DNA from: Casimicrobiaceae bacterium
GTDB taxonomy: Bacteria; Pseudomonadota; Gammaproteobacteria; Burkholderiales; Casimicrobiaceae
Direction of reading: 5' to 3'
DNA: 30,992 nucleotides
Assembly (NCBI GenBank): GCA_035601875.1
Contig: DATNNK010000220.1
Location: 1 to 30,992 of the forward strand
A model generated the notes under the pieces. That model made no database searches and was not told the origin of the DNA. It worked only from the letters and a program-made list of their open reading frames with translations. The position numbers and the translations under genes were made by a program. Positions within the stretch are counted from its first letter, which is position 1; every line of letters begins with the position of its first letter. Shown in pieces: positions 2-15,806 of the stretch.

Positions 2-549
<548 letters not shown>

Positions 550-560
550 GGTCCCGCTCC

Positions 561-1382: not shown

Positions 1383-1388
1383 GAGCTA

Positions 1389-1955: not shown

Positions 1956-1959
1956 GGTG

Positions 1960-2673
1960 TCAGCTGCGGGTCGTTTCCATCGGCGTCTCTTCGCGTCCGC
2001 GGAGCACCATGTCGAACCGATAGGCAAGCGCGATATTGGGAATGGTCCGCTCCCAGTCGAATTGCGAAATCAGCCTCTCGCGCGCTTTCTCGTTCGGGAT
2101 GCTGTTGTACATCGGGTCATACGGCAGCAGCGGATCGCCCGGAAAATACATTTGCGTCACCAGCCGTTGCACCAGGCCCAGACCGAAGAGGGAAAAATGC
2201 AGGTGCGCGGGACGCCAGGCGTTGTAATGATTGCGCCACGGGTACGCCGCGGGCTTGATGGTGATGAAGCGGTATGCGCCGTCCGCACCAGTCAGAACGC
2301 GGCCGACGCCGGTGAAGTTGGGATCGAGTGGCGCATCGTGGTCGTCGACGTCGTGCCGGTAGCGTCCGGCAGAGTTGGCTTGCCACAGCTCGATGAGCGC
2401 ATTCGCGACCGGCTTGCTGTTTTCGTCCAACAACCGGCCGGAAACGACAATGCGCTCGCCAATCGGCGCGCCTTCGTGTTGCGCGGTGAGATCATGATCG
2501 TTGGGCCCGAGATCGGCGGAGCCGAACAGCGGGCCGGTTACTTCGGAAATAGTGTGCGGCAGATGGACAAGCGGCTTCGAGGGAGCGCGCTTGATGGTCG
2601 AGCGATAACCGGGATAGAGGTGCGCCGGCTGAGTATCGAAATACGGCCGCCGGTAACCGAGAACCTTGCTCAT
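1960..2673 (-). CDS. pcaH: protocatechuate 3,4-dioxygenase beta subunit
   Basis: YRSTIKRAPSKPL, WQANSAGRYRH, DPNFTG, KPAAYPWRNHYNAWRPAHLHFS with the two Tyr and two His Fe(III) ligands. Confidence 0.97.
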   Translation of the reverse strand: MSKVLGYRRPYFDTQPAHLYPGYRSTIKRAPSKPLVHLPHTISEVTGPLFGSADLGPNDHDLTAQHEGAPIGERIVVSGRLLDENSKPVANALIELWQANSAGRYRHDVDDHDAPLDPNFTGVGRVLTGADGAYRFITIKPAAYPWRNHYNAWRPAHLHFSLFGLGLVQRLVTQMYFPGDPLLPYDPMYNSIPNEKARERLISQFDWERTIPNIALAYRFDMVLRGREETPMETTRS

Positions 2674-2793
2674 CGATTGCTCCTCCTTTTCGCGGCTCTC
2701 ATTGATCCGCCCGCCGGGCTCCGAACACTGCGGACTTCGACTGATCCATCGACCGCGCCGCCAAATGAACTCGGGCGTGCGCGATCGAAAACG

Positions 2794-3999
2794 TCAGATG
2801 CGCTCGATGATCATCGCGATGCCCTGCCCGACACCGATGCACATGGTACAGAGCGCGTAACGCCCACCCGTTCGGCGCAACTGATACAGCGCCGTGGTCA
2901 CCAATCTTGCGCCGCTCGCCCCAAGCGGATGGCCGAGCGCGATGGCACCGCCGTTGGGGTTGACGTGTTCTGCGTCGTCGGCGATGCCGTGATCGCGCAG
3001 AACGGCCAGCGCCTGCGACGCGAACGCCTCATTGAGCTCGATCACGTCCATGTCACTCAGCTTCAGCCCAGCCTTGGCGAGCACTTTGCGCATCGCCGGC
3101 GCCGGCCCGAAGCCCATGATGCGCGGCGCAACGCCCGCGACTGCCGCCGCGACCACGCGCGCCTTCGGTTCCAATCCGAATTTCTTCGCCGCCTCTGCCG
3201 ATGCGATGAGCACCGCGCAGGCGCCGTCGTTGACCCCCGAGGCATTGCCTGCCGTGACCGTTCCGTCGGGTTTGACGACGCCTTTGAGCCTGGACAGCGA
3301 TTCCAGCGTCGTGTCGGCCCGCGGATGCTCGTCTTTGTCGACGACGAGCGGATTGCCCTTTTTCTGCGGGATCGTGACCGGAACGATTTCTTCCGCCAGA
3401 CGTCCGTCTTTCATCGCTGCCGCCGCGCGTTGCTGACTGCGCAGGGCGAAAGCGTCCTGGTCCGCGCGCGAGATCTTGAAATCGGCGGCGACGTTCTCGG
3501 CCGTCTCAGGCATCGAGTCGACGCCATATTTCGCCTTCATCAGCGGATTCACGAAGCGCCAGCCGATGGTCGTATCGTAGACCTGCGCCGAGCGCGAAAA
3601 CGCGGACTCGGCCTTGCCCATCACGAACGGCGCTCGCGACATGCTTTCGACACCGCCGGCGATCGTCAGCGAAGCTTCTCCGCTTTTGATGGCGCGCGCG
3701 GCGACGGCGACGGCATCCATGCTCGAGCCGCACAGCCGATTGACGGTCGACCCTGGGACTTCGGTCGGCAATCCTGCCAGCAGCAGCGACATGCGCGCCA
3801 CGTTACGGTTATCTTCGCCGGCCTGGTTGGCGCAGCCGTAGACGACGTCGTCGATCGCTGACCAGTCAACTTTGGTGTTGCGCTCGATCAGCGCACGGAT
3901 CGGCACCGCGCCCAAGTCGTCGGTGCGAACGTTCGCAAGTCCACCACCATAACGTCCAATGGGCGTGCGTACCGCATCACAGATGAAAGCATCCAGCAT
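2794..3999 (-). CDS. pcaF: beta-ketoadipyl-CoA thiolase
   Basis: DAVRTPIGRYGG, GCANQAGEDNRNVARM, NRLCGSSMDA (catalytic Cys), NEAFASQ, GGAIALGHPLG, MCIGVGQG. Context in the pca cluster. Confidence 0.95.
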   Translation of the reverse strand: MLDAFICDAVRTPIGRYGGGLANVRTDDLGAVPIRALIERNTKVDWSAIDDVVYGCANQAGEDNRNVARMSLLLAGLPTEVPGSTVNRLCGSSMDAVAVAARAIKSGEASLTIAGGVESMSRAPFVMGKAESAFSRSAQVYDTTIGWRFVNPLMKAKYGVDSMPETAENVAADFKISRADQDAFALRSQQRAAAAMKDGRLAEEIVPVTIPQKKGNPLVVDKDEHPRADTTLESLSRLKGVVKPDGTVTAGNASGVNDGACAVLIASAEAAKKFGLEPKARVVAAAVAGVAPRIMGFGPAPAMRKVLAKAGLKLSDMDVIELNEAFASQALAVLRDHGIADDAEHVNPNGGAIALGHPLGASGARLVTTALYQLRRTGGRYALCTMCIGVGQGIAMIIERI

Positions 4000-4023
4000 G
4001 GGGTGTCCTAGATAGAGTGCACG

Positions 4024-4677
4024 TTAGCCGGCCGTGGCGGAAGCTCGCCGAAGCGGCACGCCGGTGATGCGGGCGAGCTCGTCGAACGCGAGCCCGTCGA
4101 CGGTCTCGACCACCGCCAGGCCCTCCGGCGTAACGTCGATCACCGCCAGGTCGGTGTAGATGCGATTGACGCACTTCACTCCCGTCAACGGATAAGTGCA
4201 GTGGGCAACGATCTTGCTTTCGCCACCTTTGGTCTGATGATCCATCATGACGAAAACGCGCTTGGCGCCGATGGCCAGATCCATCGCGCCTCCGACCGCG
4301 GGAATCGCATTCGGTGCGCCGGTGTGCCAGTTGGCGAGGTCCCCGGAGGCGGACACCTGGAACGCGCCGAGCACGCAAAAATCGAGATGCCCGCCACGCA
4401 TCATCGCGAATGAATCGGCGTGATGGAAATAGGCGCCGCCAGTGAGCAAAGTGACCGGTTGCTTGCCGGCGTTGATCAGGTCGGGATCCTCGGAACCGGC
4501 AGCCGGCGCCGGACCCATACCGAGCAAACCGTTTTCGCTGTGCAGGAAAATCTCGCGCTCTTTCGGCAGGTGATTGGCGACCATCGTCGGCAAGCCGATG
4601 CCCAGATTGACGTAGGCGCCTTCGGGAATGTCGCGCGCGACGCGGGCGGCCATTTGATCTCGGGTGAAGCGCTTCAT
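4024..4677 (-). CDS. pcaJ: 3-oxoadipate CoA-transferase subunit B
   Basis: MKRFTRDQMAARVARDIPEGAYVNLGIGLPT, HSENGLLGMGP (catalytic Glu), GGAMDLA. Start moved to the ATG at 4677; the track's upstream extension overlaps pcaI. Confidence 0.95.
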   Translation of the reverse strand: MKRFTRDQMAARVARDIPEGAYVNLGIGLPTMVANHLPKEREIFLHSENGLLGMGPAPAAGSEDPDLINAGKQPVTLLTGGAYFHHADSFAMMRGGHLDFCVLGAFQVSASGDLANWHTGAPNAIPAVGGAMDLAIGAKRVFVMMDHQTKGGESKIVAHCTYPLTGVKCVNRIYTDLAVIDVTPEGLAVVETVDGLAFDELARITGVPLRRASATAG

Positions 4678-4687
4678 GGGTGGAACC

Positions 4688-5386
4688 TCATGCGGCAGCC
4701 TGCGGCGGCGAGAGCTGGTCGGGAACATCGATCTCCACGACGCGTTGAACGAAGATCCCCGGCGTGACGATCGCTTCCGGATCCAGTTCACCCAACGCGA
4801 CCACCTTTCGCACCTGCGCGATGGCGCACTTTGCGGCGGAGGCCATGATCGGTCCGAAGTTGCGCGCGGTCTTGCGATACACAAGATTGCCCCAGCGGTC
4901 GCCCTTGTCGGCCTTGATCAGCGCGAAATCCGCGGCGATCGGATATTCGAGCACGTAGCCGCGGCCATTGATGACGCGGGTTTCCTTGCCTTCGGCGAGT
5001 GGTGTCCCATACGCAGTCGGAGTGAAGAATGCTCCGATCCCGGCTCCGGCTGCCCGTATGCGCTCGGCGAGATTGCCCTGCGGCACAAGCTCGAGCTCGA
5101 TCTCGCCCGCATGATAGAGCGCGTCGAAGACATACGAATCGGTCTGCCGTGGAAAGGAACAGATGATCTTGCGCACCCTTTTGGCCTTCAGGAGCGCCGC
5201 GAGGCCGATGTCTGCATTGCCGGCATTGTTGTTCACGATGGTGAGATCGCGTGCCCCGTGCTGGATGAGCGCATCGATGAGCTCGGAGGGCATACCGGCG
5301 GTGCCAAAGCCGCCGATCATGACCGTCGCGCCGTCAGCAATGTCTGCGACAGCGGCGCTGGGCGAGGCAACGGTCTTGTCGATCAT
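4688..5386 (-). CDS. pcaI: 3-oxoadipate CoA-transferase subunit A
   Basis: MIDKTVAS..ADIADGATVMIGGFG, NNNAGN, LVPQGNLAERIRAAGAGIGAF, NLVYRKTARNFGP. GGAGGA RBS before the ATG at 5386. Confidence 0.95.
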   Translation of the reverse strand: MIDKTVASPSAAVADIADGATVMIGGFGTAGMPSELIDALIQHGARDLTIVNNNAGNADIGLAALLKAKRVRKIICSFPRQTDSYVFDALYHAGEIELELVPQGNLAERIRAAGAGIGAFFTPTAYGTPLAEGKETRVINGRGYVLEYPIAADFALIKADKGDRWGNLVYRKTARNFGPIMASAAKCAIAQVRKVVALGELDPEAIVTPGIFVQRVVEIDVPDQLSPPQAAA

Positions 5387-5446
5387 GTCTCCTCCGGCAC
5401 GGGCCTCAGGGCGGCCCCTTAAAGGGATGGCCAAGGGAACCGCCTT

Positions 5447-5546
5447 GTGCGATTATCGGATAATCGTGCGATGAACGAACAAATTTTACCTGGTGGCGAT
5501 GCAGCCGTCAACGGGCGGTTATCGAAATATTGTGCGTTTATCGAAC
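5447..5546. promoter_or_regulatory. four PcaR/PcaU-type operator boxes in the pcaI/pcaR divergent region
   Basis: GTGCGATTATCGGAT (5447-5461), GTGCGATGAACGAAC (5466-5480), GGGCGGTTATCGAAA (5513-5527) and GTGCGTTTATCGAAC (5532-5546) match 12-14 of 15 positions of GTGCGATTATCGAAC. That is the reverse complement of the PcaR box GTTCGATAATCGCAC as I recall it. Confidence 0.8.
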
Positions 5547-5587
5547 TCCGGATAAGATTACCGGTGTCAGTGCTGCGGAAACGCCTC

Positions 5588-6496
5588 ATGCCATCCTCGA
5601 CGATGCGAACGCCAAAAGACCCGCCACTCCCGGGAAAGCGCGCCGCCCGGGCAGCGCCGGTCAAGAAGGATGCGGGCATTGTCGCGCCGAAACCACGGCT
5701 CGTCACGCCGGCGTCGGAGATCGACGGCTTGACCGGCGATCCGAACTTCATGACCTCGCTCGCCCGCGGGCTTGCGGTCATCCGCGCCTTCACGCAGCAG
5801 CGCCGGCACCTCACCATCGCGCAACTGAGCCATCGAACGGGCATACCGCGCGCGGCCGTGCGGCGCTGCCTCTACACGCTGGCAAAACTCGGCTACGTGG
5901 TCGCCGACGAAGCGCGCGGTTACTCGCTGCGGCCCGGCATACTGGCGCTCGGCCATGCCTATCTTTCGTCGACTCCGTTGGCGACGATGGTGCAGCCGCT
6001 CCTCGATCACATCAGCGATGCACTGCACGAGTCGAGCTCGATGGCGGTCCTGGAAAGCGATGAAATCCTCTATATCGCCCGCTCGACGACAACGACCCGC
6101 TTGATGTCGATCGACCTCGGGCTCGGCAGCCGCCTGCCGGCGTATTGCTCATCGATGGGGCGCGTGCTGCTGGCGTCGCTCTCGGGGCAGGAGCTCGACG
6201 CTTATCTTTCGAGGGTGAAGCTCACGCGGCTCACCAAGCGCACGATCGTATCGGCGCCCGAGCTCAAGCGCGCGCTCGACCAAGTTCGCCGCAACGGATT
6301 TTCGCTGGTCGATCAGGAACTGGAAATCGGCTTGCGCTCGATCGCGGTGCCAGTGACGGATCCGTCCGGCAAGGTCGTTGCCTCCATCAACGTCGGCACC
6401 CAGTCGGCTCGGGTGTCGGTCGCCGAGATGGAATCCAAGTTCCTGCCGGCGCTGCTCCACGCCGCGCGCGAGCTGGGCACCTTGCTCCCGCGCTAG
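5588..6496 (+). CDS. pcaR: IclR-family regulator, PcaR/PcaU/PobR subfamily
   Basis: FMTSLARGLAVIRAF...LTIAQLSHRTGIPRAAVRRCLYTL HTH, GSRLPAYCSSMGRVLLA, DQELEIGLRSIAVPV. Divergent from pcaI. Start uncertain (5588 or 5603); the track's start at 5447 runs through the operators. Confidence 0.88.
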   Translation: MPSSTMRTPKDPPLPGKRAARAAPVKKDAGIVAPKPRLVTPASEIDGLTGDPNFMTSLARGLAVIRAFTQQRRHLTIAQLSHRTGIPRAAVRRCLYTLAKLGYVVADEARGYSLRPGILALGHAYLSSTPLATMVQPLLDHISDALHESSSMAVLESDEILYIARSTTTTRLMSIDLGLGSRLPAYCSSMGRVLLASLSGQELDAYLSRVKLTRLTKRTIVSAPELKRALDQVRRNGFSLVDQELEIGLRSIAVPVTDPSGKVVASINVGTQSARVSVAEMESKFLPALLHAARELGTLLPR

Positions 6497-6500
6497 TGCA

Positions 6501-6812
6501 CTAGGAAACCGGTATCTCCATCTCCAAAAGCGCGTAACTCAGCGATTTCCCGTGAGCGTCCAGCGCAAGCGATGTGGTCACCCCGCCGCTCAGCGACCGC
6601 GCGCACACGAATTGGAGCGCCCACAGCGCGGGCAGCTCAAAGCGCCGGATGTCGCCTTCCACGATTCCGCGAAGATGCTTCGCCACAGCGTCGATCGTCA
6701 CCTGCGCCGCGAGCAAGGGATAGTCCTCGGCCCGATACGCGATCAGCGACAGGATCGACGTGTTCCCCTTGTCGCCGGCGCGGCAATGCGCCAGCTCATG
6801 CAGCTTTGGCAT
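6501..6812 (-). CDS. small AtuA-related protein (resembles the C-terminal domain of long AtuA/DUF1446 proteins)
   Basis: MPKLHELAHCRAGDKGNTSILSLIAY...RRFELPALWALQFV...LSGGVTTSLALDAHGKSLS. AH-x-R-x-GDKGN and DxHGK motifs, AAGGAG RBS, overlaps the end of the upstream gene. Confidence 0.82.
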   Translation of the reverse strand: MPKLHELAHCRAGDKGNTSILSLIAYRAEDYPLLAAQVTIDAVAKHLRGIVEGDIRRFELPALWALQFVCARSLSGGVTTSLALDAHGKSLSYALLEMEIPVS

Positions 6813-8139
6813 TGCCTGCATACTCCTTGATGGTGACTTTGGCCGTAACCTGCTCGCGGTCGACCAGCGTCGAGACGATTCCGATCTGCTCGTGTACGTA
6901 CTTGCGCGTGCCACCGCCGCCCGCGGGACCGTTGGTGTAGAGCGCCTCGACCTCCTCGCCGACTATCATCGCCAGCTCGGCCGACTTTGCGCGGGCCGCG
7001 ACCCGCAAACGGACTTCGTAGGGATGCGCCGCAGGGTCGAACGATCTGCCGTGCATCGATGTTGCGCCGATCAGATCGACGCGCATGTCGGGGAATAGGC
7101 GGCCAATACGCTCGCGAATGATCTCGCCCGCGAGTCGGGCTCGCGCGACTGCGTTGGCGCCGGCGTATCCGATTTCGCCCTCACCCACATATCCCGCAAG
7201 ATAGCCCACGCTAACCTTGAGCTCGCGCGGACGCGCCCTGCCGCGCGCGCCGCTCACCGCGACGCGGTCCGAACCGGATTCGCGCAGCGTAACCTTGGAG
7301 AAGTCGGCGATGACGTCCGGCGTAACGTAACCGAAGGGATCGGTAACCTCGTAGAGTAGCTGTTCCTTTGCGTTCGCCAGAGTAATACGCCCGCCGGTGC
7401 CTTCGGCCTTGCCGAAGGTCGCGTCGCCCTCCGGGTCGACGTCGGCGTAGGGGAATCCGAGGTTCGCCATGTCCGGTACCTCCTTGGGTCCGGGTTCCGC
7501 GTAATAGCCTCCGCACAGTTGCCCGGCACACTCGAGCAAATGGCCGACCGACGTTCCCCGCGCCAACCGGTCGTAGTCGTCGAGCGCCCATCCGTAGCGA
7601 TGGGCCATGGGCGCGACGAACAAGGAGGGATCGGCAACGCGGCCGGTGATGACCATGTCGGCTCCTGTTTCGAGCGCGGGCAACAATGCTGCAACGCCAA
7701 GATATGCGTTCGCGGAAACGAGCTCGCCGAAATCGGCGAGCGGCGTGTGTGTCTCGAGGGTGCGCGCAGCCGGATCGATTTCCGCCAGCACGTCGTCGCC
7801 GGTGATCACCGCCACGCGAATCGAAATTCCCTGACGGCGTGCGATAGTAATGACGGCGTCTGCCGCAGCCAGTGGGTTGGCGGCGCCCATGTTGGTGACC
7901 AGCCTGAAGCGGCGTGCCTGGAGCTCTGGCAGCAGAAGCTCGATGCGCCGTTCGAGCAGCGGGTCGTATCCTCGGGCAGGATCCTTGCGCTTGCGAAGTT
8001 GCGCCAGAGCAATCGTGCGCTCGGCCAGGCACTCGAGGACCAGGTAGTCGATCCCGCCTCGTGCGGCGAGAACGACTGCCGGCTCGAGCCGGTCGCCCGA
8101 GAATCCGGCACCGCAACCGATCCGCAGCGGTTTCGCCAT
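6796..8139 (-). CDS. acyclic terpene utilization AtuA family (DUF1446) protein
   Basis: LRIGCGAGFSGDR, DYLVLECLAERT, TNMGAANP, ANAYLG, VITGRVADPSLF, GHLLECAGQLCGGY, EQLLYEV..P..Y.TPDV.ADF, EALYTNGPAGGGG. Confidence 0.9.
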   Translation of the reverse strand: MAKPLRIGCGAGFSGDRLEPAVVLAARGGIDYLVLECLAERTIALAQLRKRKDPARGYDPLLERRIELLLPELQARRFRLVTNMGAANPLAAADAVITIARRQGISIRVAVITGDDVLAEIDPAARTLETHTPLADFGELVSANAYLGVAALLPALETGADMVITGRVADPSLFVAPMAHRYGWALDDYDRLARGTSVGHLLECAGQLCGGYYAEPGPKEVPDMANLGFPYADVDPEGDATFGKAEGTGGRITLANAKEQLLYEVTDPFGYVTPDVIADFSKVTLRESGSDRVAVSGARGRARPRELKVSVGYLAGYVGEGEIGYAGANAVARARLAGEIIRERIGRLFPDMRVDLIGATSMHGRSFDPAAHPYEVRLRVAARAKSAELAMIVGEEVEALYTNGPAGGGGTRKYVHEQIGIVSTLVDREQVTAKVTIKEYAGNAKAA

Positions 8140-8155
8140 GTCGACGTGAGCGGCT

Positions 8156-9163
8156 TCAGTCGCCAGGAAGACTCTGCACTTCGGGAAAGAAGAAATCCTT
8201 CCAGGAGCCGGGCTTGGTCTTGATAGCGCCGATCTTGTACATGAAGTCCGCCGTCTTGCCTACCTTTTGCGGCGTCAGCGTGTACGCGTAATCGGCCGCG
8301 CTGATCATGCCGTAGATGTCGTCGACCGTACTCTTGGTGTCCTTGGCCTGTTCCAGATAGACCTTGGCCGCCGCGCGCTTATCCTTGTTGATGCTATCGA
8401 TCGCTTCTTTCAGCGCGTCATAGAACGCCTTGTAGGATTTCGGATTGGCATCGCGATACTTCGTCGATGTGGCAAGGACAACGGCAGTTGCCGGGCCACC
8501 TAGAATTTCATATGAGGTGGTCAACGTCCTCATGCCAGGAATTTTCATCTCCTGCTCGTGAAATGGTGACGTCGTGAAGTGGGCATCGACTCCACCGCTA
8601 TTGTTGGTGATCGCGAGCAGCCCGTCGGGGTGCGACAGCCCTACGGTCCACGGGTCCAGTCGTGCGTAATTGGCATCACCGAATTCTTTCGCCGCCGCCA
8701 TCTGCAGCATGATGGCTTGAGTCGAGACTTTGATCGACGGCACCGCGATCTTGTCCTTGTCGCTGAAGTCGCGGATCGATTTCACGCTCGGATTGCGCAC
8801 GTTGAGATACAGGGGATAGGTTGTCATTGCCGATAGACCCTTGACCTGCACGTTGCTCTGGGTCTTGTCCCACAAGGTGATCAAAGACGGCGCGCCGACT
8901 GCGATGAACTGGATCGCTCCGCTGATAACGCCATCGTTCATCACACTGGGCCCGGCAACCTTGACCCAATTGACCTTGACATCGCTCAAGCCGGCGGCTT
9001 TGGCGTGTTTTTCGACGAGCTTGTCACGCTGCATCACCATTAGCGGCAGGAAGCTCACGCCATATTGCTGGGCGACGTTGATCTCCGCCAGCTCAGCGTA
9101 GGCCGGCATTCCGGTAACCGCCAGAAACAATGCGAGTACGAACCGATTGATAACAGGCATCAC
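8156..9163 (-). CDS. ABC-type periplasmic substrate-binding protein (NitT/TauT/SsuA-like)
   Basis: Signal peptide ending AYA-E, QQYGVSFLPLMVM, DKIAVPSIKVSTQAIMLQMAA, LSHPDG, HFTTSPF, C-terminal WKDFFFPE. Confidence 0.85.
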   Translation of the reverse strand: MMPVINRFVLALFLAVTGMPAYAELAEINVAQQYGVSFLPLMVMQRDKLVEKHAKAAGLSDVKVNWVKVAGPSVMNDGVISGAIQFIAVGAPSLITLWDKTQSNVQVKGLSAMTTYPLYLNVRNPSVKSIRDFSDKDKIAVPSIKVSTQAIMLQMAAAKEFGDANYARLDPWTVGLSHPDGLLAITNNSGGVDAHFTTSPFHEQEMKIPGMRTLTTSYEILGGPATAVVLATSTKYRDANPKSYKAFYDALKEAIDSINKDKRAAAKVYLEQAKDTKSTVDDIYGMISAADYAYTLTPQKVGKTADFMYKIGAIKTKPGSWKDFFFPEVQSLPGD

Positions 9164-9233
9164 TCCTCCTCGAACAGCATGCGCCGCGGCCTTACTGCTC
9201 GAATTTAGACAACCGGCGCCTAACGTCGATCTC

Positions 9234-11348
9234 CTACTCGATCGGAATCGCGCTTATTGCCAGGACCCCTTGCAGGGCCTGATTGAACAAGCGACCCGCG
9301 TCCTCAGGGAGCAAGTAGCGATTTTGCACCAGCTGGTTGATTATGTTGAGAGCGCTGTAATAATAGCCGACGAACGTATAGCGTTCCGCCAGCGAAGGTC
9401 TTGGGTCGCCATTCGCCATACGATCCGCCTGCGTCTTGGCGAAGGGAACGAAGCCGCCGGTAAAGGCGCAGATTCTGCCTTTGTTATAACCGGTCGTCAC
9501 GACGTTCCAGCCGGTGTAGGTGCCCAAGGGCAACTGATGCAGCACCGAGGGAATGCCTGCGACTTCGTTGCCGTCCGAGTTGACCTTGACGACGTAGGTT
9601 GGAATCACCTGCTTGATCGCTGGCGGTTCCTGGGAAATGACACCCGACATATCGTTGTAGAGGAACGCTGGCCCGAAATCCTGGTCGACCATCGAGTTGA
9701 CGAGTCCGTCGATGGACGGCACGCCGGGGATGGTCGGGAACCCGGTGGCAGCTTTGGTCGCGGCTACGAGCGTGCCATCGGCAAGACGCGGATAGACGCT
9801 CGGCGGTGGATCGATTCCCTTCGTGACCCAATCGCTCAAGGCGACGAAGAGCGCGCGCTGCGTTTCGGTCTCCGGGTTGGGATTGTTCTGCAGCAGACAC
9901 GCGCCGCCGGTGCCGCCGGCGCTACCTGTACTCAGACCGAAGCCACCGGCACCGCCGCCATGAGACGTTCCCGGCATGTAGTACCTGCGCACCTCCGGGG
10001 CAAGCGGAATATCCGCCTTGGCGTCGGTGCCGATCAATCCCGGCGACATGCGCAGGTCCCAGAACTCGGTCGCGCCGAACGATTCGACGATCTTCGGGCA
10101 AGTAAGGCTTATGCGGCACCGGTCGAGCATGCCCGCGGTCTGTCTACTACGCGTGGTGTCCTTGTAGTCTTCCCACCATAGCGCGGGCTCGCTGCCGGGC
10201 TCGTACAACGTCGCGGCGCCGCCAGGGAACGCCCATCGGAAATTAATCGGCGTCTGACGCGCCGCGATGTAGTCGTTGATGCCTTGAATGACGGTGCGCC
10301 TCGACTCGTCTTCGTTGAATCCAAGATGTACGAATGTCTTCAGCGCGTTGCCCGCCTGCGAGGTGCCTTCGGCGAGCACGAACTGAAGGCCGCCGGCAAC
10401 CGGATTCACCGTCCCCATATCGTCCGCCGTCGCGTTGCGGAAGAACGACATCACGTCGCGCATCGCGGCCAAGCCGACGCCGAGAACCATCGGGTCCTTT
10501 GCCGTATAGACGAGCTCATACAGCAGCGTCGGATCTACGCCGTTTTTTAGACAGATCCTGGTCGGGTCCGCGGTACCGGGGAACGGCACCGTGCGGCAAT
10601 CGGCCCAGGCCCAGTCTGTGCTGGCGACGGCCGCGACCGCGCCGGTGACTGCCGTCTGAGATTCCGCGGCATGCGTCGTCAGCGTCGCCTTGGTCGTGTC
10701 CAGGCTCGCTGGTGCGTAGAAGTTCGCGGTAAATGCCCCCGGCGGAACGCTGGTCAACGCGACCGTCGTCGTGTTTGCCGGCTCGTTCCAGAAGCGGAAT
10801 ATCACCGGTCCGGTGATGCTCGATCCGTCGGGATTTTTCGCGATGGGTACCTGCACGGTCTCGTTGGCCGCGTTGGGCAACGGCACCACGTCGCCCTGCC
10901 ATCCGCTCCACAGCAGGGTGTAGCCGCGTTTCTGCATGAACCCGTCGCCGGGATCGCCGCCGATGCTATACGGAAAATTACGGCTGCCCCGATTGACGAC
11001 GTTGTAGAACAGCACACCGTTACCCTTACTCACGTCGATCGGTTTGATCAGCGTGAACGTGGCGGTGTATTCGATGTTGCCGCGCGCGTTGCGCGGGGCG
11101 AACTGGATGTCGGTGATGATGGCGTTGTGCGGATCGTTGGGGTTGATCTCGCCAAACGCGGTGCCGACGAGCTTCTCGTACTGGCCTACGCTTGCGAACG
11201 CCTGGCCGGAGTATGTCGGCGACTCCTTGGTCGCGACGACGATCTTGGTGACACGCGCCTCGGCTTGCGTCGCCATCCGTACGGCGAAGGCAAGTAAGCC
11301 AGGCAGCGCGAACCGGCCGCGTGCGCGGCCACTTTTATCGGACCTCAT
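9234..11348 (-). CDS. large exported alpha/beta-hydrolase-domain protein (about 704 aa)
   Basis: Signal peptide ending AEA-RV, YNVVNRG, GWQGD, LGVGLAAMRD, GTSQAG nucleophile-like motif, YYMPGTSHGGG His, PLGTYTGWN, DPRPSLAERY. Start moved to the ATG at 11348 after a GGAGGA RBS. Confidence 0.82.
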   Translation of the reverse strand: MRSDKSGRARGRFALPGLLAFAVRMATQAEARVTKIVVATKESPTYSGQAFASVGQYEKLVGTAFGEINPNDPHNAIITDIQFAPRNARGNIEYTATFTLIKPIDVSKGNGVLFYNVVNRGSRNFPYSIGGDPGDGFMQKRGYTLLWSGWQGDVVPLPNAANETVQVPIAKNPDGSSITGPVIFRFWNEPANTTTVALTSVPPGAFTANFYAPASLDTTKATLTTHAAESQTAVTGAVAAVASTDWAWADCRTVPFPGTADPTRICLKNGVDPTLLYELVYTAKDPMVLGVGLAAMRDVMSFFRNATADDMGTVNPVAGGLQFVLAEGTSQAGNALKTFVHLGFNEDESRRTVIQGINDYIAARQTPINFRWAFPGGAATLYEPGSEPALWWEDYKDTTRSRQTAGMLDRCRISLTCPKIVESFGATEFWDLRMSPGLIGTDAKADIPLAPEVRRYYMPGTSHGGGAGGFGLSTGSAGGTGGACLLQNNPNPETETQRALFVALSDWVTKGIDPPPSVYPRLADGTLVAATKAATGFPTIPGVPSIDGLVNSMVDQDFGPAFLYNDMSGVISQEPPAIKQVIPTYVVKVNSDGNEVAGIPSVLHQLPLGTYTGWNVVTTGYNKGRICAFTGGFVPFAKTQADRMANGDPRPSLAERYTFVGYYYSALNIINQLVQNRYLLPEDAGRLFNQALQGVLAISAIPIE

Positions 11349-11548
11349 GATGGTTCCTCCAATGTCAATTGACAAACGCCGGTGACCTGCAGGCCTCACT
11401 CGAAGCTTACTCGAATCGGTTCGTCGATCTTGGTCGGTCGACTGTTTTGGTGCCCGCACCGTGGCTCCGCACGGCCGGAGTCTCGTCAGCGCTTGGTATT
11501 GAAGCCGATCGTAATTTATAATGCCAACAAATAATTTTGATCACAGAA

Positions 11549-11563
11549 ATCGGCTTTTTCGAT
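11549..11563. promoter_or_regulatory. possible LysR-type T-N11-A site (ATC-N9-GAT) overlapping the regulator start codon
   Basis: ATCGGCTTTTTCGAT in the AT-rich divergent region. The motif is degenerate, so support is weak. Confidence 0.3.
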
Positions 11564-12479
11564 GAATATAAACCTCCGTCAATTGCGCGCTTTCGTCTCG
11601 ATCAGCCATCTCGGGGGTTTCACCAAGGCCGCCGAGGCGCTCCACGCCACGCAGCCTACATTGAGCGCCCAGATCAACCAGCTCGAGGAATCCCTGGGCG
11701 TGCGACTCTTCGATCGCAGCACGCGATCGGTAACGCTGACTCAGGTGGGGAGAGATCTGCTCCCCGTGGTGGACAAGGTATTGAGCGATCTCGCGGCGGT
11801 CGCGGTGCGCGCGCGCGATGTCGCGCAGAAGAACACCGGACGCGTCGTCGTGGCAGCGTTACCATCGATCTCGTCGACGCTGTTGCCGCAGGCGATTGCC
11901 GGCTTCCTGAAGACTTACCCCGGCATCTCTATCAGTCTCAAGGACGCTCTGGCGGAACGCATCGTTGACATGATCCGCTCCGACGAAGTGGATTTCGGGA
12001 TCAGCAGCTCCGCGATGAACGATCCGCAGATCGAGTTCACGCCGCTTGCGACGGACAGGATGGTATTGGTGCTGCCGCGCGGGCATAAACTCGCGAAATC
12101 CGCGAAGATTTCTCTCGAAGATCTGCTCGATGTTCCATTGATTTTCATGAATCGGGACAGCAGCGTGCGCCGGATCCTCGACGATGCCTACGCGTCGGCC
12201 GGACAGCCCGCGACCCCTTCGTACGAAGCCGCGTTCATGTCCACTGCCATCGGCATGGTCCGTGCAGGCCTCGGTGTGACCTTGCTGCCTTCATCTGCGC
12301 TCGAGGTGAAGACAGCGTCGGACTTGGTCTGCGGTGCGATCAATCACCCGAAGCTCAAGCGAAAGATCGGGATATTGCGTAAACGCCGGCAGTCATTCTC
12401 GCCTGCGGCGGCCTCCTTCGCAGCGTCCTTGCACGCGCTTTCCCGCGACTGGTTCAGGTCCGAGGCGGAGCTGCGATAG
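11562..12479 (+). CDS. LysR-family transcriptional regulator
   Basis: NLRQLRAFVSISHLGGFTKAAEALHATQPTLSAQINQLEESLGVRLFDRSTRSVTLT HTH plus substrate-binding domain. Divergent from the hydrolase operon. Confidence 0.95.
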   Translation: MNINLRQLRAFVSISHLGGFTKAAEALHATQPTLSAQINQLEESLGVRLFDRSTRSVTLTQVGRDLLPVVDKVLSDLAAVAVRARDVAQKNTGRVVVAALPSISSTLLPQAIAGFLKTYPGISISLKDALAERIVDMIRSDEVDFGISSSAMNDPQIEFTPLATDRMVLVLPRGHKLAKSAKISLEDLLDVPLIFMNRDSSVRRILDDAYASAGQPATPSYEAAFMSTAIGMVRAGLGVTLLPSSALEVKTASDLVCGAINHPKLKRKIGILRKRRQSFSPAAASFAASLHALSRDWFRSEAELR

Positions 12480-12488
12480 CGCGAATGC

Positions 12489-13676
12489 TCACGTTTGCGC
12501 CGGAATCGCCCGCACCGACAGCACGCCCTGGATCGCCGAGATCGCATCGACCACCGATGGTTGTACCGGGCTGTCGACGTCGACCAGCGTGTACGCCATT
12601 TCGCCCCGCGATTTGTTCACCATGTTGTGGATGTTGAGCCCGGCGTGTGCCATGGTCGTGGAAATCTGTCCCAACATGTTGGGCACATTCGCGTTGGCGA
12701 TGGCGACGCGATAGGGTGACTCCCGCGGCATGTCGACGTTGGGGAAATTGACCGCGTTGGCGATGGCGCCGTTTTCCAGATATTCGCGCACCTGATCGAC
12801 GACCATGACCGCGCAATTCTCCTCCGCTTCCTCCGTCGACGCGCCCAAGTGCGGCAGCGCAGCGACACCGGGCTGGTGCAGCAGCTTGGCACTCGGAAAG
12901 TCGCAGAGGTAATACTTGAGACGGCGCGCGCGCATCGCCGCGATCACCGCATCCTCGTCGACGATGCCGTCGCGAGCGAAGTTGAGGAGCGCCGCGCCAC
13001 TCTTCATGACCGCCAGCCGCTGGTCGTCGATCAGGTGTCGCGTGACGTCGAGCAAGGGCACGTGCAGGGTGACGAAATCCGACTGCTTGAGGAGCTCCTC
13101 GATGCTGTTGGCTTTGCGCACCGTCGACGGCAGCCGCCACGCCGCGTCGACGGTGATCTCCGGATCGAAGCCGACGACCTTCATCCCGAGCTTGATGGCG
13201 GTGTCGGCCACGAGGCTGCCGATCGCTCCCAGGCCGATGATGCCCAGCGTTCGGTTGGGTAGCTCCACGCCCGCGAACTGCTTTTTCGCGTCCTCGACAC
13301 TTTTTTCCAGGTTCGGCGCCGCGGCATCCAGCTTCGCCACGTAGTCGAGCGCGGGAATCAGGTTGCGCGCCGCCGTCAGCAGGGCTGCCAGCACCAGCTC
13401 CTTCACCGCGTTGGCGTTGGCGCCGGGCGCATTGAACACTGGCACGCCGCGCTTGGACATCGCGTCGACCGGAATGTTGTTCGTTCCCGCGCCGGCGCGG
13501 CCGATTGCCTTGACGCTGGCCGCAATCTCCATCGTGAGCATGTCGAACGAGCGCACGAGTATGGCGTCGGGATGCTCTACCGCCTTCCCGACCGCGTAGC
13601 GCGCGTTCGGAAGGCGGTGCAGCCCCTGACTGGATATCTGGTTGAGGGTAAGGACGTGGTAGCGGGTGTCAGCCAT
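12489..13676 (-). CDS. serA: D-3-phosphoglycerate dehydrogenase with C-terminal ACT domain
   Basis: [60 protein letters not shown] tail [10 protein letters not shown]. Overlaps the end of serC. Confidence 0.92.
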
Positions 13677-14748
13677 ATCGTCTTTCGAAATCCTTCATGT
13701 ATGCGACCAGCGCCTGCACGCCTTCGATGGGCATGGCGTTGTAGATAGAAGCTCTCATGCCGCCGACCGAACGATGCCCCTTGAGCTGCACCATGCCGTG
13801 TTCCTTGGCGCCCTTGAGGAACGCATCGTCCTGCGACTCGTCCTTGAGCCGGAAGGGAATGTTCATGCGCGAACGATCCTGTTTGCGCACCGGGCTGCTG
13901 TAAAACCCGCTGCCGTCGAGATAATCATAGACAAGCGCCGCCTTGGCGACATTCTTCTTCTCGATCGCCGCCAATCCGCCCTGCGCCTGCAGCCATTCGA
14001 ACACCAGGCCGGCGACATAAATGGCGTAGGTCGGCGGCGTGTTGAGCATGGAATCGGCCTCCGCCTGTTCTTTCCAGTTGAATGCGGAAGGGGTCAAGCT
14101 CATCGCGCGACCGAGCAGATCATCGCGCACGATCACCAGCGTGAGCCCGGCCGGACCCATATTCTTTTGCGCCCCGCCGTAGATCACGCCGTACTTCGCG
14201 ACGTCGATGACCCGCGACAGGATATGCGAGGACATATCCGCCACCACGGACGCGTCGCCGGTGTCGGGATCCCACTGATACTCGACACCGCCGATGGTTT
14301 CGTTGGTGCAGACGTGAACGTATGCGGCATCCTTCGAGAGCTGCCAGGTCTCCTGCGCAGGCACGTAGGTGAAATGCTTGTCTTCCGCCGACGCGGCAAT
14401 GTTGACCGTGCAGTATTTCTTCGCTTCCTTGATCGATTTCTTGGACCACTCTCCGGTGTTGACGTAGTCCGCCACCGATCGGCTGCCGAGAAGGTTCATC
14501 GGCACGATGGCATTTTCGGCGACCGCCCCGCCTTGCAGGAACAGAACCTTGTAGTTGGCGGGAATCGCCAGCAATGCGCGCAGATCGGCCTCGGCCTTGT
14601 CGGCGATGCTGATGAATTCCTTGCCGCGATGACTCATTTCCATCACCGACATGCCGCTACCATGCCAATCCAGCATTTCGGCGGCGGCCTTGCGCAACAC
14701 TTGTTCCGGCATGACCGCGGGGCCGGGACTGAAATTGAACACTCGCAT
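13669..14748 (-). CDS. serC: phosphoserine aminotransferase
   Basis: [48 protein letters not shown] (PLP Lys), [20 protein letters not shown]. Confidence 0.97.
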
Positions 14749-14791
14749 GAGATGGATCCGGGGTTATGCCGTCGCGACCGAACGCAACCAA

Positions 14792-14823
14792 CAATGCACG
14801 TTGTTGTCAATGCACATCGTTGT
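14792..14823. repeat. 16-bp tandem direct repeat x2 upstream of serC
   Basis: CAATGCACGTTGTTGT followed by CAATGCACATCGTTGT (14/16 identical). It overlaps the inverted repeat CAACAA-N6-TTGTTG at 14789-14806. Confidence 0.6.
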
Positions 14824-14930
14824 ATATGGCTGGAGTGCGATTTTACTGCATTGGCGCGCTTGCGTAGGGTCGCCGCGTGCGCAATGCGCAGCGCTTGTCT
14901 GATCGGCCAGCTATCCCATAAGATGCGCCC

Positions 14931-15749
14931 ATGATTGCTCGCGTTGTGCGGCACTTGCTCACCCTCCTGCTGTTGGCCGCCGCACAAGCGCTCGCCCAAG
15001 CGCCGCAAACGGTGTTTCTCGACGAGCTGACCTCGAGCGAGCTCCGGGATCAGGTCCGCGCCGGACGGAGGACGATCATCGTTCCGATCGGGGGAACCGA
15101 GCAGAACGGTCCGCACATGGTGCTCGGCAAACATAACGTCCGGGTCAAGGTTCTGGCCGAGAAAATTGCGCTTGCGCTTGGCGACGCACTGGTAGCACCG
15201 GTGATGGCCTACGTGCCTGAGGGCGGCATCAGCCCGCCGACGTCGCACATGCGCTTTCCCGGCACGATCAGCATTCCGGACCAGACATTTCAGCAAATAC
15301 TTGAATATGCCGCGCGAAGCCTTAAGCTGCACGGCTTTCGCGACATCGTTTTCCTCGGTGACCACGGCGGCTACCAGAAGGACGAGCAAGCGGTCGCCGA
15401 TCGCCTGAACCGGGAATGGGCGTCGGCACCGACGCGGGTGCATGCGCTGCCCGAATACTACCGAGCGGCCGCGATCGCGTATGCGGAAGCGCTGCGGCAA
15501 CGCGGCTACCCGAATGATGAAATCGGCACCCATGCAGGGCTCGCCGACACTTCGCTCGCGCTGGCCATCGATCCGCGCCTGGTTCGGCGCGACTTCTTGC
15601 GCTCCGCGCGGGCTCCCGGTGTCGATCGCGCGAGCGAAGGCGTGACCGGTGACCCGCGTCGTGCCAGCGCCGAGCTGGGCCAAGTCGGCGTCGACGCCAT
15701 CGTTGCCCAGACAGTCGACGCGATCAAACGCGCGACGGCGAGACGCTAA
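14931..15749 (+). CDS. creatininase-family protein with signal peptide
   Basis: N-terminal LLTLLLLAAAQALA, IIVPIGGTEQNGPHM, HMRFPGTISI, GDHGGY, THAGLADTS, GVTGDPRRASAELG. Confidence 0.85.
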   Translation: MIARVVRHLLTLLLLAAAQALAQAPQTVFLDELTSSELRDQVRAGRRTIIVPIGGTEQNGPHMVLGKHNVRVKVLAEKIALALGDALVAPVMAYVPEGGISPPTSHMRFPGTISIPDQTFQQILEYAARSLKLHGFRDIVFLGDHGGYQKDEQAVADRLNREWASAPTRVHALPEYYRAAAIAYAEALRQRGYPNDEIGTHAGLADTSLALAIDPRLVRRDFLRSARAPGVDRASEGVTGDPRRASAELGQVGVDAIVAQTVDAIKRATARR

Positions 15750-15806
15750 CCACGCATCAAGGACGTGCTACATCTTTTCCGATCCGAGGAGGTCCAAGGA
15801 GTGCTT

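What the first reader, a model, noticed from the sequence alone, without database searches (positions are those of the whole stretch)
6501..12479. Uncharacterised LysR-controlled catabolic operon: exported hydrolase, binding protein and two-part AtuA, next to the pob/pca cluster
Seen: four co-directional, closely spaced genes (704-aa exported alpha/beta-hydrolase, periplasmic binding protein, DUF1446/AtuA, small AtuA-C-like protein) divergent from a LysR regulator and abutting pcaR. Known: AtuA/DUF1446 has no established reaction. As I recall, the common small-AtuA loci pair LysR with a CitMHS-type transporter, not a hydrolase and a binding protein. Inference: a pathway in which a periplasmic enzyme cleaves an ester or oligomer, the binding protein captures the product and the AtuA pair processes it, possibly feeding the neighbouring beta-ketoadipate route. 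This is the best candidate for an undescribed system in the window.
Basis: partly seen in the sequence, partly recalled or inferred. Interest (0 to 1): 0.75.

Follow-up and report, generated by a model that had tools for sequence, protein, structure and literature searches.

The report
Exported hydrolase plus split AtuA operon
A soil bacterium carries a real, regulator-controlled gene cassette whose substrate is unknown: an exported hydrolase, a periplasmic binding protein and a two-subunit AtuA enzyme, and the hydrolase and AtuA pair turn up side by side in several bacterial phyla.

Summary
On the minus strand lie an exported 704-aa Abhydrolase_10 hydrolase, a TauA/SsuA-fold binding protein, AtuA (PF07287) and a 106-aa AtuA_ferredoxin partner, divergent from a LysR gene.

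- The hydrolase–AtuA pairing is not chance. It recurs in Burkholderiales, Sphingomonadales, Caulobacterales, Acidobacteriota and Gemmatimonadota, in different gene orders.
- The uptake slot varies: this binding protein (with ABC ATPase and permease genes in two relatives), a TctC protein, or a CitMHS permease.
- The hydrolase is an optional front end. Binding protein–AtuA–small partner is the common core: AtuA orthologs occur in 26 of 40 same-genus species, the hydrolase ortholog in 2.
- The link to pca is not conserved.
- "AtuA has no established reaction" is outdated. PDB 9ERQ/9EVF label an AtuA-family protein as citramalate lyase subunit CmlA, and a preprint uses two-subunit CmlAB to cleave citramalate to pyruvate and acetate. 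The window's AtuA is only a distant relative.

Most likely reading: the hydrolase unmasks an anionic, probably hydroxy-carboxylate, compound in the periplasm. It is imported and then split by a CmlAB-like lyase. The substrate is unknown.

This scan's first readers noted similar LysR/CitMHS/split-AtuA and AtuA/Bug/706-aa-protein modules on other genomes.

The parts
11562..12479 (+). LysR-type transcriptional regulator, divergent from the operon
   Evidence: HTH_1 plus LysR_substrate domains; no NCBIfam equivalog reaches its cut-off. Orthologs of 53-81% identity sit next to the hydrolase in L001, L068, G805 and G826. LysR genes of 47-50% identity sit next to hydrolase homologs in Acidobacteriota.
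11349..11561 (.). Shared control region holding a conserved interrupted dyad GAT-N7-ATC at 11539-11551
   Evidence: The dyad block is the best-conserved part of the intergenic alignment of window, L001 and L068. A promoter-like site for lysR lies at 11493-11522. Its function is inferred, not shown.
9234..11348 (-). Exported 704-aa serine-hydrolase-like protein, Abhydrolase_10 family
   Evidence: PF20091; signal peptide. Model pLDDT is 90.5, with an alpha/beta-hydrolase core at Z about 14 to many esterases and peptidases. Ser330 (motif G-x-S-Q-x-G-N, after strand 323-329 and before helix 331-341), His463, Glu428, Asp446 and Asp397 are invariant in 51 homologs.
8156..9163 (-). Periplasmic substrate-binding protein of the NitT/TauT (TauA/SsuA) class; likely start at the ATG at 9160
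   Evidence: Signal peptide. Model pLDDT is 91.3, with TM about 0.70 to TauA, SsuA, NrtA/CmpA, ThiY and PqqT at 12-20% identity. Orthologs lie directly upstream of AtuA in every related locus, and downstream of ABC ATPase and permease genes in L068 and G805.
6796..8139 (-). AtuA/DUF1446 large subunit, cytoplasmic
   Evidence: PF07287 at 495 bits. A profile of 15 orthologs matches PDB 9erq_A (AtuA family, citramalate lyase subunit CmlA) at E 5e-8 over residues 83-313. Shared motifs are GR-x-x-DP, LECA and LYE-x-x-DP.
6501..6821 (-). Small AtuA_ferredoxin subunit (DUF4387 type), translationally coupled to AtuA
   Evidence: PF23544. Motifs AH-x-R-x-GDKG and D-x-HGK are invariant in 15 orthologs. 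Complex with AtuA predicted: score 0.94, best of 3 controls 0.03 (mark reached by 58 of 80 solved complexes and 2 of 110 mismatched pairs). The invariant residues lie in the interface.

Best explanation
This is a LysR-controlled catabolic operon for an unidentified anionic compound that reaches the cell in masked form, as an ester, lactone or amide.

Steps, each marked shown or inferred:
1. The exported Abhydrolase_10 enzyme has a Ser330/His463 pair plus an acid residue (Glu428 or Asp446). It hydrolyses the precursor in the periplasm. The fold, export signal and conserved residues are shown. The substrate is inferred.
2. The TauA/SsuA-fold binding protein captures the released acid and hands it to a NitT/TauT-type ABC importer. 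The ATPase and permease genes lie inside the operon in the same-genus genome G805 and in L068. They are missing from the window's operon. An 80%-identical permease gene lies on another contig of the same genome (C68). The gene layout is shown. The transport step is inferred.
3. In the cytoplasm, AtuA and its small ferredoxin-fold partner form one heteromeric enzyme. It has the same two-part architecture as the citramalate lyase CmlAB. It cleaves a C-C bond of a hydroxy-carboxylate, for example into a 2-oxo acid plus acetate, feeding central metabolism. The complex is predicted. The chemistry is inferred by analogy with a distant relative.
4. The divergent LysR activates the operon in response to the substrate or its product. 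This is inferred from the arrangement, from the conserved dyad, and from the regulator travelling with the hydrolase.

The hydrolase and LysR are an optional front end that widens what the binding protein-AtuA-small core can use.
For: The same cassette recurs:
- L001, syntenic with the window.
- The P0028 contig, which has different flanks and a TctC protein in the binding-protein slot.
- L068 and same-genus G805, which add ABC ATPase and permease genes.
- G826, rearranged.
- Burkholderiales family f2, as LysR | AtuA-small-TctC-hydrolase.

Among the 80 best hydrolase loci of GTDB species representatives, 11 carry AtuA (10 of them with the small partner as well, L129 only an AtuA fragment at a contig end). 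They come from Betaproteobacteria, Sphingomonas, Novosphingobium, Brevundimonas, Acidobacteriota and Gemmatimonadaceae. In eight of these 11 a CitMHS permease was identified by Pfam: L079, L102, L118, L126, L127, L129 and L131, and it is likely in L142 by layout.

On the hydrolase tree the AtuA-linked rows are scattered. Parsimony needs 9 changes, and at least 6 are forced by well-supported branches.

At genome level in the order, an AtuA homolog is present in 61 of 75 hydrolase-positive genomes against 45 of 325 hydrolase-negative ones. These genomes are not phylogenetically independent.

The AtuA-small complex scores 0.94 against a best control of 0.03.

Precedent for AtuA-family chemistry: PDB 9erq/9evf are named 'AtuA family protein | citramalate lyase, subunit A (cmlA)'. 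[quoted passage not shown] A DUF1446 gene lies next to methylaspartate ammonia-lyase (PMC4682846). AtuA was earlier proposed as the acetate-releasing C-C cleaving step of the Atu pathway (PMC13689101, citing Forster-Fromme 2006).

All uptake partners seen (TctC, CitMHS, TauA-like protein) belong to families that bind or carry anions.

No terminator lies inside the run.

Contigs from two soil metatranscriptome runs cover parts of all four genes, and two of them bridge the binding protein/AtuA junction. This is weak evidence.
Against: - No substrate is identified for any of the three proteins.
- The window's AtuA is only distantly related to CmlA: pairwise E 1.2e-3, and the profile matches only about half the length. 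Lyase chemistry is therefore an analogy.
- Most hydrolase homologs (69 of the 80 best loci) and most AtuA orthologs stand without the other gene.
- L169, with the same flanks as the window, has serC-serA-binding protein-AtuA-small with neither LysR nor hydrolase.
- The window lacks the ABC ATPase and permease genes in the operon.
- Fold searches place the hydrolase no nearer to esterases than to peptidases.
- The RNA-library contigs do not prove transcription or a single transcript.
Confidence: 0.55

Rival explanations
1. Mosaic. The LysR-hydrolase pair and the binding protein-AtuA-small trio are two independent units that lie side by side in this lineage. They do not act on one pathway.
For: L169 has the same serC/serA flank but lacks LysR and the hydrolase. 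L063, L065 and L167 have CMD-binding protein-AtuA-small without the hydrolase. In the genus, AtuA orthologs occur in 26 of 40 species and the hydrolase ortholog in 2. Most hydrolase loci lack AtuA. LysR genes of 47-50% identity accompany the hydrolase alone in Acidobacteriota.
Against: The two units are found together in at least six separately placed lineages of the hydrolase tree, across several phyla. Gene orders differ, and three different uptake proteins sit between or beside them. Genome-level co-occurrence is 81% against 14%. Optional front-end enzymes are usual in catabolic modules.
Confidence: 0.15
2. The cassette is one pathway, but the AtuA pair does something other than C-C cleavage of a hydroxy-acid. 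It could be a hydratase, isomerase or decarboxylase, or act on an amino-acid-derived acid released by a peptidase-like hydrolase.
For: Similarity to CmlA is remote. The best structural neighbours of the hydrolase include S9 and S15 peptidases. One related AtuA locus carries an M20 peptidase in place of the hydrolase (L054). Other partners include CMD-family and lactonase genes.
Against: The only AtuA-family member with a deposited function is a lyase. Several core motifs are shared with CmlA. The older proposal for Pseudomonas AtuA is also a C-C cleavage that releases acetate.
Confidence: 0.2
3. One reading: the operon feeds the neighbouring protocatechuate/beta-ketoadipate route, for example by handling an aromatic ester.
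For: A complete pcaIJFHGDC cluster with pcaR abuts the operon, with a 4-nt gap. A PcaR-like gene lies about 5 kb from hydrolase homologs in L061 and L140. A tannase/feruloyl-esterase gene follows the hydrolase in Brevundimonas.
Against: pcaR adjacency is seen only in the window and the syntenic L001. It is absent from L068, G805, G826, the P0028 contig, the f2 loci and all CitMHS-type loci. pcaR is convergent and belongs to the divergent pcaIJF unit. The operon has its own LysR.
Confidence: 0.05
4. A terpene-type role as in Pseudomonas: the AtuA pair acts on a CoA thioester of a branched acid.
For: Family name and Pfam membership.
Against: None of the annotated flanking genes is an acyl-CoA carboxylase, dehydrogenase, hydratase or ligase partner. 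The consistent partners are exported hydrolases and carboxylate uptake proteins. The protein is the split short form, not the fused form of about 590 aa.
Confidence: 0.03

Closest known systems
CmlAB citramalate lyase (Raoultella planticola; PDB 9ERQ/9EVF chain A 'AtuA family protein / citramalate lyase subunit A')
   Same: Same Pfam family (PF07287). Two-subunit architecture: large AtuA plus a small partner. Shared motifs GR-x-x-DP, LECA and LYE-x-x-DP. Acts on a free carboxylate, not a CoA ester.
   Different: Only remote similarity: pairwise E 1.2e-3, and the profile gives E 5e-8 over residues 83-313. No methylaspartate-pathway neighbours. Here the partners are an exported hydrolase and an importer. 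A profile of the small subunit finds no PDB chain. The substrate is therefore probably different.
Pseudomonas aeruginosa AtuA (acyclic terpene utilisation)
   Same: Family membership. The proposed role is C-C cleavage that releases acetate from a tertiary alcohol.
   Different: Pseudomonas AtuA is a fused single protein in an operon of CoA-dependent enzymes (from my own knowledge and earlier scan notes). The window's genes are split and have no such neighbours.
LysR / CitMHS / split-AtuA cassettes (uncharacterised, widespread)
   Same: The same AtuA-small pair with a divergent LysR. Seen here in L054, L079, L102, L118, L126, L127, L129 and L131.
   Different: In the window the permease is replaced by a periplasmic binding protein.
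TauABC/SsuABC-type (NitT/TauT) ABC importers
   Same: Binding-protein fold, TM about 0.70. Cognate ATPase and permease genes lie in the operon in L068 and G805.
   Different: Only 12-20% identity to any solved member. No ABC genes in the window's operon. The context is carbon catabolism rather than sulfur or nitrogen scavenging.
Exported carboxylesterases with large lids (tannase/feruloyl esterase/MHETase, CE15 glucuronoyl esterases) and S9/S15 peptidases
   Same: Alpha/beta-hydrolase core with a Ser nucleophile elbow and a His loop. Exported, with conserved cysteines.
   Different: No specific affinity. The Z values (about 13-15) are flat across hundreds of chains, and Foldseek E values are 4e-3 or worse. 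The family (7441 cluster representatives at E <= 1e-3) has no characterised member that I could find.

Membership tests
AtuA family (PF07287) | Score above the Pfam gathering cut-off over the full domain | tested here: met
   494.6 bits against a cut-off of 22.8, profile positions 1-436 of 437.
Split AtuA (DUF1446 plus AtuA_ferredoxin/DUF4387 partner) | Separate small gene with PF23544 directly downstream, forming a complex with the large subunit | tested here: met
   PF23544 at 107 bits. 26-nt overlap with AtuA. Predicted complex scores 0.94 against a best control of 0.03; 58 of 80 solved complexes and 2 of 110 mismatched pairs reach the mark. This is a prediction only.
CmlAB citramalate lyase | Close sequence relationship (orthology) to CmlA | tested here: not met
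   phmmer E 1.2e-3 over residues 143-311. Profile E 5e-8 over residues 83-313 only.
CmlAB citramalate lyase | Context of methylaspartate-pathway genes (methylaspartate ammonia-lyase, glutamate mutase, mesaconase) | tested here: not met
   Neighbours are the hydrolase, binding protein, LysR, pca genes and serA/serC.
CmlAB citramalate lyase | Cleavage of (S)-citramalate to pyruvate and acetate | not testable with these tools
   Needs an enzyme assay.
Pseudomonas Atu pathway | atuBCDEF-type CoA-dependent genes beside atuA | tested here: not met
   None among the genes from 160 to 17000.
Abhydrolase_10 (PF20091) | Pfam score above cut-off; catalytic Ser and His conserved | tested here: met
   86.3 bits against a cut-off of 23. 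Ser330 and His463 are invariant in 51 sequences. Catalysis itself was not tested.
NitT/TauT ABC importer | Binding protein with the TauA/SsuA fold | tested here: met
   Foldseek E 1.4e-14, TM 0.70/0.78 to 6ssy (TauA). Profile hits to 3qsl, SsuA and TauA.
NitT/TauT ABC importer | Adjacent ATPase and permease genes | tested here: not met
   A 70-nt gap separates the hydrolase and binding-protein genes in the window. The ABC genes are present in L068 and G805. An 80%-identical permease lies on own contig C68.
LysR-type regulated divergent operon | HTH_1 plus LysR_substrate domains, divergent orientation, dyad operator | tested here: inconclusive
   Domains and orientation are met. A conserved GAT-N7-ATC dyad is seen in three orthologous regions. 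Binding was not tested.
3-hydroxybutyrate-oligomer hydrolase (PF10605) | Detectable profile similarity | tested here: not met
   The atlas lead scored 0.79. hhalign gives probability 0.15%. No Pfam hit even at E <= 10.

The most novel reading that the evidence does not exclude
Abhydrolase_10 hydrolases and split AtuA enzymes together form a widespread, undescribed route in soil bacteria. In this route an exported esterase strips a tertiary hydroxy-di/tricarboxylic acid from plant or fungal conjugates. Candidates are citramalate-, citrate- or 3-hydroxy-3-methylglutarate-like acyl groups. A CoA-independent, CmlAB-like lyase then splits the free acid into a 2- or 3-oxo acid and acetate. This would assign a first function to two large families. 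GH3 glycosidase, TonB-dependent receptor and tannase/esterase genes beside the cassette in Sphingomonas, Novosphingobium, Brevundimonas and an acidobacterium are compatible with acylated plant glycosides as the source.
Probability: 0.25. Interest if true: 0.7.

Novelty: new variant of a known kind. Interest (0 to 1): 0.55.

Why it matters
Two large protein families meet here, and I found no characterised member of either's local branch.
- Abhydrolase_10 has 7441 cluster representatives at E <= 1e-3. Homologs in soil Acidobacteriota, Planctomycetota and Proteobacteria share 55-58% identity with this protein.
- The split AtuA pair has only one functional precedent, the newly deposited CmlAB citramalate lyase.

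Their repeated genetic linkage, always with an anion uptake protein and usually a LysR, gives a concrete and testable pathway hypothesis. The cassette also occurs in cultured strains (Novosphingobium, Sphingomonas, Brevundimonas) where it can be tested.

If the lyase analogy holds, it would extend CoA-independent C-C cleavage of hydroxy-acids beyond glutamate fermentation to aerobic soil carbon turnover. The three-way swap of the uptake component (ABC binding protein, TctC or CitMHS) is a clear example of non-orthologous replacement within one cassette.

Tried and rejected
1. 3HB-oligomer hydrolase lead. The ESM-atlas feature search pointed to PF10605, tannase and DUF6351 clusters at 0.76-0.79, which is noise level. 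Profile-profile comparison with four 3HBOH proteins gave probability 0.15%, and Pfam at E <= 10 shows only PF20091. Rejected.

2. Fold searches for the hydrolase. Foldseek against PDB and Swiss-Prot models gave nothing below E 1e-3. VIA-align gave a flat list of alpha/beta hydrolases at Z 13-15. AFDB clusters returned only unnamed family members. No substrate class follows.

3. PDB search with the small subunit, alone and as a profile. No hit, so I could not confirm that it corresponds to the second chain of 9ERQ.

4. Idea that the binding protein serves a TctAB membrane unit. This came from tctBA lying next to CMD-binding protein-AtuA in L063, L065 and L167. I set it aside once cognate ABC ATPase and permease genes were found in L068 and G805.

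5. Ligand inference from the binding-protein fold. Only the general TauA/SsuA/NrtA/ThiY/PqqT class emerges, at 12-20% identity.

6. pca link. Not conserved.

7. Internal terminators and the hydrolase-binding protein spacer fold. Not different from shuffled sequence, z = -1.04.

8. Expression. Contigs from two soil metatranscriptome runs cover parts of all four genes. By the tool's own warning they cannot show transcription or a single transcript.

9. Literature. I found no paper on PF20091 and no full paper on CmlAB.

10. My first ORF maps of high-GC loci, built from the longest ORFs, were wrong. I replaced them with a GC3-based caller.

Full report
**What is there.** Five genes sit at the stated coordinates.
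- Hydrolase, 9234-11348 (-). It encodes 704 aa starting at an ATG behind GGAGGA, with a signal peptide ending AEA. It matches PF20091 Abhydrolase_10 at 86 bits against a cut-off of 23.
- Binding protein, 8156-9163 (-). The start is more probably the ATG at 9160, which gives 334 aa as in its homologs. It has a signal peptide.
- AtuA, 6796-8139 (-), 447 aa, PF07287 at 495 bits.
- Small AtuA_ferredoxin protein, 6501-6821 (-), 106 aa, PF23544 at 107 bits. Its start overlaps the AtuA stop by 26 nt.
- LysR, 11562-12479 (+), divergent from the run.

The gaps are 70 nt, 16 nt and an overlap. Neither the terminator scan nor a fold of the 70-nt spacer differs from shuffled sequence.

To the left lies a pcaR-type IclR gene. 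It is convergent, with its stop 4 nt from the small gene's stop. Beyond it lie pcaI, J, F, H, G, D and C. To the right of LysR lie a serA-like dehydrogenase and serC.

The genome is a soil MAG of the GTDB order that holds Burkholderiales-type families. It has 3.04 Mb in 541 contigs and is 75.6% complete. Near-identical DNA occurs in soil metagenomes of 12 studies.

**Is the cassette real?** Yes. The same layout recurs in independent DNA:
- Contig L001 (hydrolase 70% identical) has the same five genes and syntenic flanks.
- A 179-kb contig (hydrolase P0028, 65% identical) has LysR | hydrolase-TctC-AtuA-AtuA_ferredoxin in entirely different flanks. The binding-protein slot is filled there by another family.
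- L068 and the same-genus genome G805 have LysR | hydrolase-ABC ATPase-ABC permease-binding protein-AtuA-small.
- Same-genus G826 has small<-AtuA | LysR->hydrolase->binding protein->second hydrolase->TctC.
- Three genomes of another family of the order (f2) have LysR | AtuA-small-TctC-hydrolase.

Among the 80 best hydrolase loci of GTDB species representatives, 11 have AtuA beside the hydrolase; 10 of them also show the small partner, and L129 shows only an AtuA fragment at the contig end. They include an uncultured betaproteobacterium, three Acidobacteriota, a Gemmatimonadaceae MAG, Brevundimonas, Sphingomonas, two Novosphingobium species and another alphaproteobacterium. In the non-Burkholderiales loci a CitMHS-type permease takes the uptake slot.

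On a maximum-likelihood tree of 91 hydrolases the AtuA-linked rows are scattered. Parsimony needs 9 changes, and at least 6 are forced by well-supported branches.

In 400 genomes of the order, an AtuA homolog (E <= 1e-40) is present in 61 of 75 genomes with a hydrolase homolog. It is present in 45 of 325 without one. These genomes are related, so this is descriptive and not a test.

**What is core and what is accessory.** The binding protein is far better conserved than the hydrolase, at 80-87% identity where the hydrolase is about 70%. It always sits directly upstream of AtuA-small. Three contexts show the trio without the hydrolase:
- L063, L065 and L167: tctBA | CMD-binding protein-AtuA-small, followed in two of them by a lactonase.
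- L169: this has the window's own flank (creatininase, serC, serA) but runs straight from serA into binding protein-AtuA-small, with neither LysR nor hydrolase.
- Within the genus: AtuA orthologs (65-78% identity) occur in 26 of 40 species representatives, while hydrolase orthologs (71%) occur in 2.

LysR travels with the hydrolase. Orthologs of 53-81% identity occur in the betaproteobacterial loci. LysR genes of 47-50% identity lie next to lone hydrolase homologs in Bryobacteraceae and Solibacteraceae. So LysR plus hydrolase is an insertion/deletion unit, added as a front end to an uptake-plus-AtuA core.

The AtuA orthologs nearest to the window's in other families (59-65% identity) pair with TctC, an MFS transporter, or CitMHS plus an M20 peptidase.

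**The three proteins.**

*Hydrolase.* The AlphaFold model is confident, at pLDDT 90.5. The core is an alpha/beta-hydrolase fold. Ser330 sits in an invariant G-x-S-Q-x-G-N elbow between strand 323-329 and helix 331-341. His463 follows strand 453-458. Glu428, Asp446 and Asp397 are invariant candidate acids, and several cysteines are near-invariant.

No solved structure stands out. Foldseek E values are 4e-3 or worse. VIA-align gives Z 13-15 for hundreds of esterases and S9/S15 peptidases. The family is large: 7441, 4159 and 975 cluster representatives at E <= 1e-3, 1e-10 and 1e-30. I found no literature on it.

*Binding protein.* The model has pLDDT 91.3. It has the TauA/SsuA/NrtA/ThiY/PqqT fold, with TM about 0.70 at 12-20% identity. 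That class binds small molecules, many of them anions, including sulfonates, nitrate, bicarbonate and the tricarboxylate PQQ. No ligand can be deduced.

Its ABC ATPase and permease genes are in the operon in L068 and G805 but not in the window. An 80%-identical permease gene lies at the start of own contig C68.

*AtuA pair.* The complex predictor gives 0.94 in three runs against a best control of 0.03. That mark was reached by 58 of 80 solved complexes and 2 of 110 mismatched pairs. The counts hold only roughly because my own alignments were used, and a pass may reflect likeness to a solved complex.

The invariant residues of the small subunit (His12, Arg14, Gly16-Gly19, Asp88, Lys92) and invariant AtuA residues (Glu40/Arg41, Tyr212-Lys219, Glu259-Glu264) lie in the interface. 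This suggests a shared active site.

**What AtuA proteins do.**
- A 2026 preprint uses Cml from Raoultella planticola, a gift of the Berg laboratory, expressed as cmlAB with one ribosome-binding site per subunit. [quoted passage not shown]
- This fits the older remark that a DUF1446 gene follows methylaspartate ammonia-lyase in enterobacteria.
- It also fits the annotation of two adjacent AtuA-family genes beside that lyase gene in Prevotella.
- The original proposal for Pseudomonas AtuA was likewise an acetate-releasing C-C cleavage of a tertiary alcohol.

The window's AtuA is a distant relative of CmlA. Pairwise E is 1.2e-3. A 15-sequence profile gives E 5e-8 over residues 83-313, with shared GR-x-x-DP, LECA and LYE-x-x-DP motifs. 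I therefore file it as an AtuA-family member that plausibly works like CmlAB. I do not file it as a citramalate lyase.

**Mechanism proposed.** The hydrolase unmasks an anionic compound outside the cytoplasm. The binding protein and an ABC importer take it up. In other lineages a TctC system or a CitMHS permease does this. The AtuA heteromer then cleaves it. LysR senses the compound or its product.

The best-conserved block of the LysR-hydrolase intergenic region in three orthologous loci is an interrupted dyad, GAT-N7-ATC, at 11539-11551. It is a candidate operator.

In Sphingomonas, Novosphingobium and Brevundimonas the cassette is flanked by GH3 glycosidase and TonB-dependent receptor genes. 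In Brevundimonas there is also a tannase/feruloyl esterase gene. In one acidobacterium there is a CBM48-esterase gene. This hints at plant-derived acylated glycosides as a source, but it is only a hint.

**What is not supported.** The connection to the pca genes is not supported. pcaR adjacency is confined to the window and to syntenic L001.

**Limits.**
- No substrate is known for any component.
- The RNA evidence is weak. Metatranscriptome contigs of related strains cover parts of all four genes, and two of them bridge the binding protein/AtuA junction. They cannot prove transcription.
- Gene maps of fetched loci come from my own GC3-based ORF caller plus tblastn and Pfam.
- The tallies include genomes flagged unpublished (G692, G822, G830). 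No specific claim rests on them.
- Earlier first-reader notes of this scan describe the CitMHS/split-AtuA cassette and an AtuA/DUF4387/Bug/706-aa-protein cluster on other genomes. I saw both arrangements independently.

Noticed in passing
L169:4688-9656 (metagenome contig, binding protein 87% identical): A close relative keeps the window's flank (creatininase, serC, serA) but runs serC-serA-binding protein-AtuA-small with no LysR and no hydrolase. The LysR+hydrolase pair is therefore a clean two-gene insertion or deletion at window positions about 9164-12488.
   Followed up: partly
L063, L065, L167 (Casimicrobiaceae-type contigs): A variant locus reads tctB-tctA (divergent) | CMD-family protein-binding protein-AtuA-small, followed by a 7-bladed lactonase in two of the three contigs. 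No tctC gene lies nearby. It is open whether the TauA-like binding protein can serve a TctAB unit.
   Followed up: partly
L181 (G805:C1:606000-619000) and L068:764-7255: Full six-gene form of the operon, with NitT/TauT-type ABC ATPase and permease genes between the hydrolase and binding-protein genes. The window, L001, L168 and G826 lack these two genes.
   Followed up: yes
own genome, contig C68:106-960: An 80%-identical ortholog of that ABC permease lies at the very start of a 3.2-kb contig, followed by a 2-hydroxyacid-dehydrogenase paralog. The ATPase gene would lie beyond the contig end.
   Followed up: partly
own genome: The MAG has at least 23 TctC (Bug) paralogs but only one TctA. It has five paralogs of the TauA-like binding protein. 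It is a Bug-rich genome with many orphan binding proteins.
   Followed up: no
own genome, contig C47:21-2151: A second, weaker AtuA-family gene (79 bits, in an open frame of 588 aa, so possibly the fused long form) lies next to a TctC gene.
   Followed up: no
L182 (G826:C5:141000-157000): Two hydrolase paralogs lie near each other (69% and 54% identical to the window's), with the binding-protein gene between them and a TctC gene after. An AtuA-small pair (50% identical) lies divergent on the other side of LysR.
   Followed up: partly
L060:7268-10988; L135, L138: Hydrolase homologs without AtuA often sit beside other carboxylate-handling genes in the same direction. Examples are an MmgE/PrpD-family gene (L060) and TctC genes (L135, L138).
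   Followed up: no
L067, L068, L168: In three contigs the AtuA gene is broken into two or three in-frame pieces. In L168 the hydrolase and LysR are fragmented too. These may be assembly errors or decaying copies.
   Followed up: no
window 5447-6496: The pcaR ORF as listed is 349 aa, but family matches begin at residue 99. The true start is probably near 5738, giving about 252 aa.
   Followed up: partly
window 11539-11551: An interrupted dyad GAT-N7-ATC is conserved in the LysR-hydrolase intergenic regions of the window, L001 and L068. It lies 11 nt upstream of the lysR ATG.
   Followed up: partly
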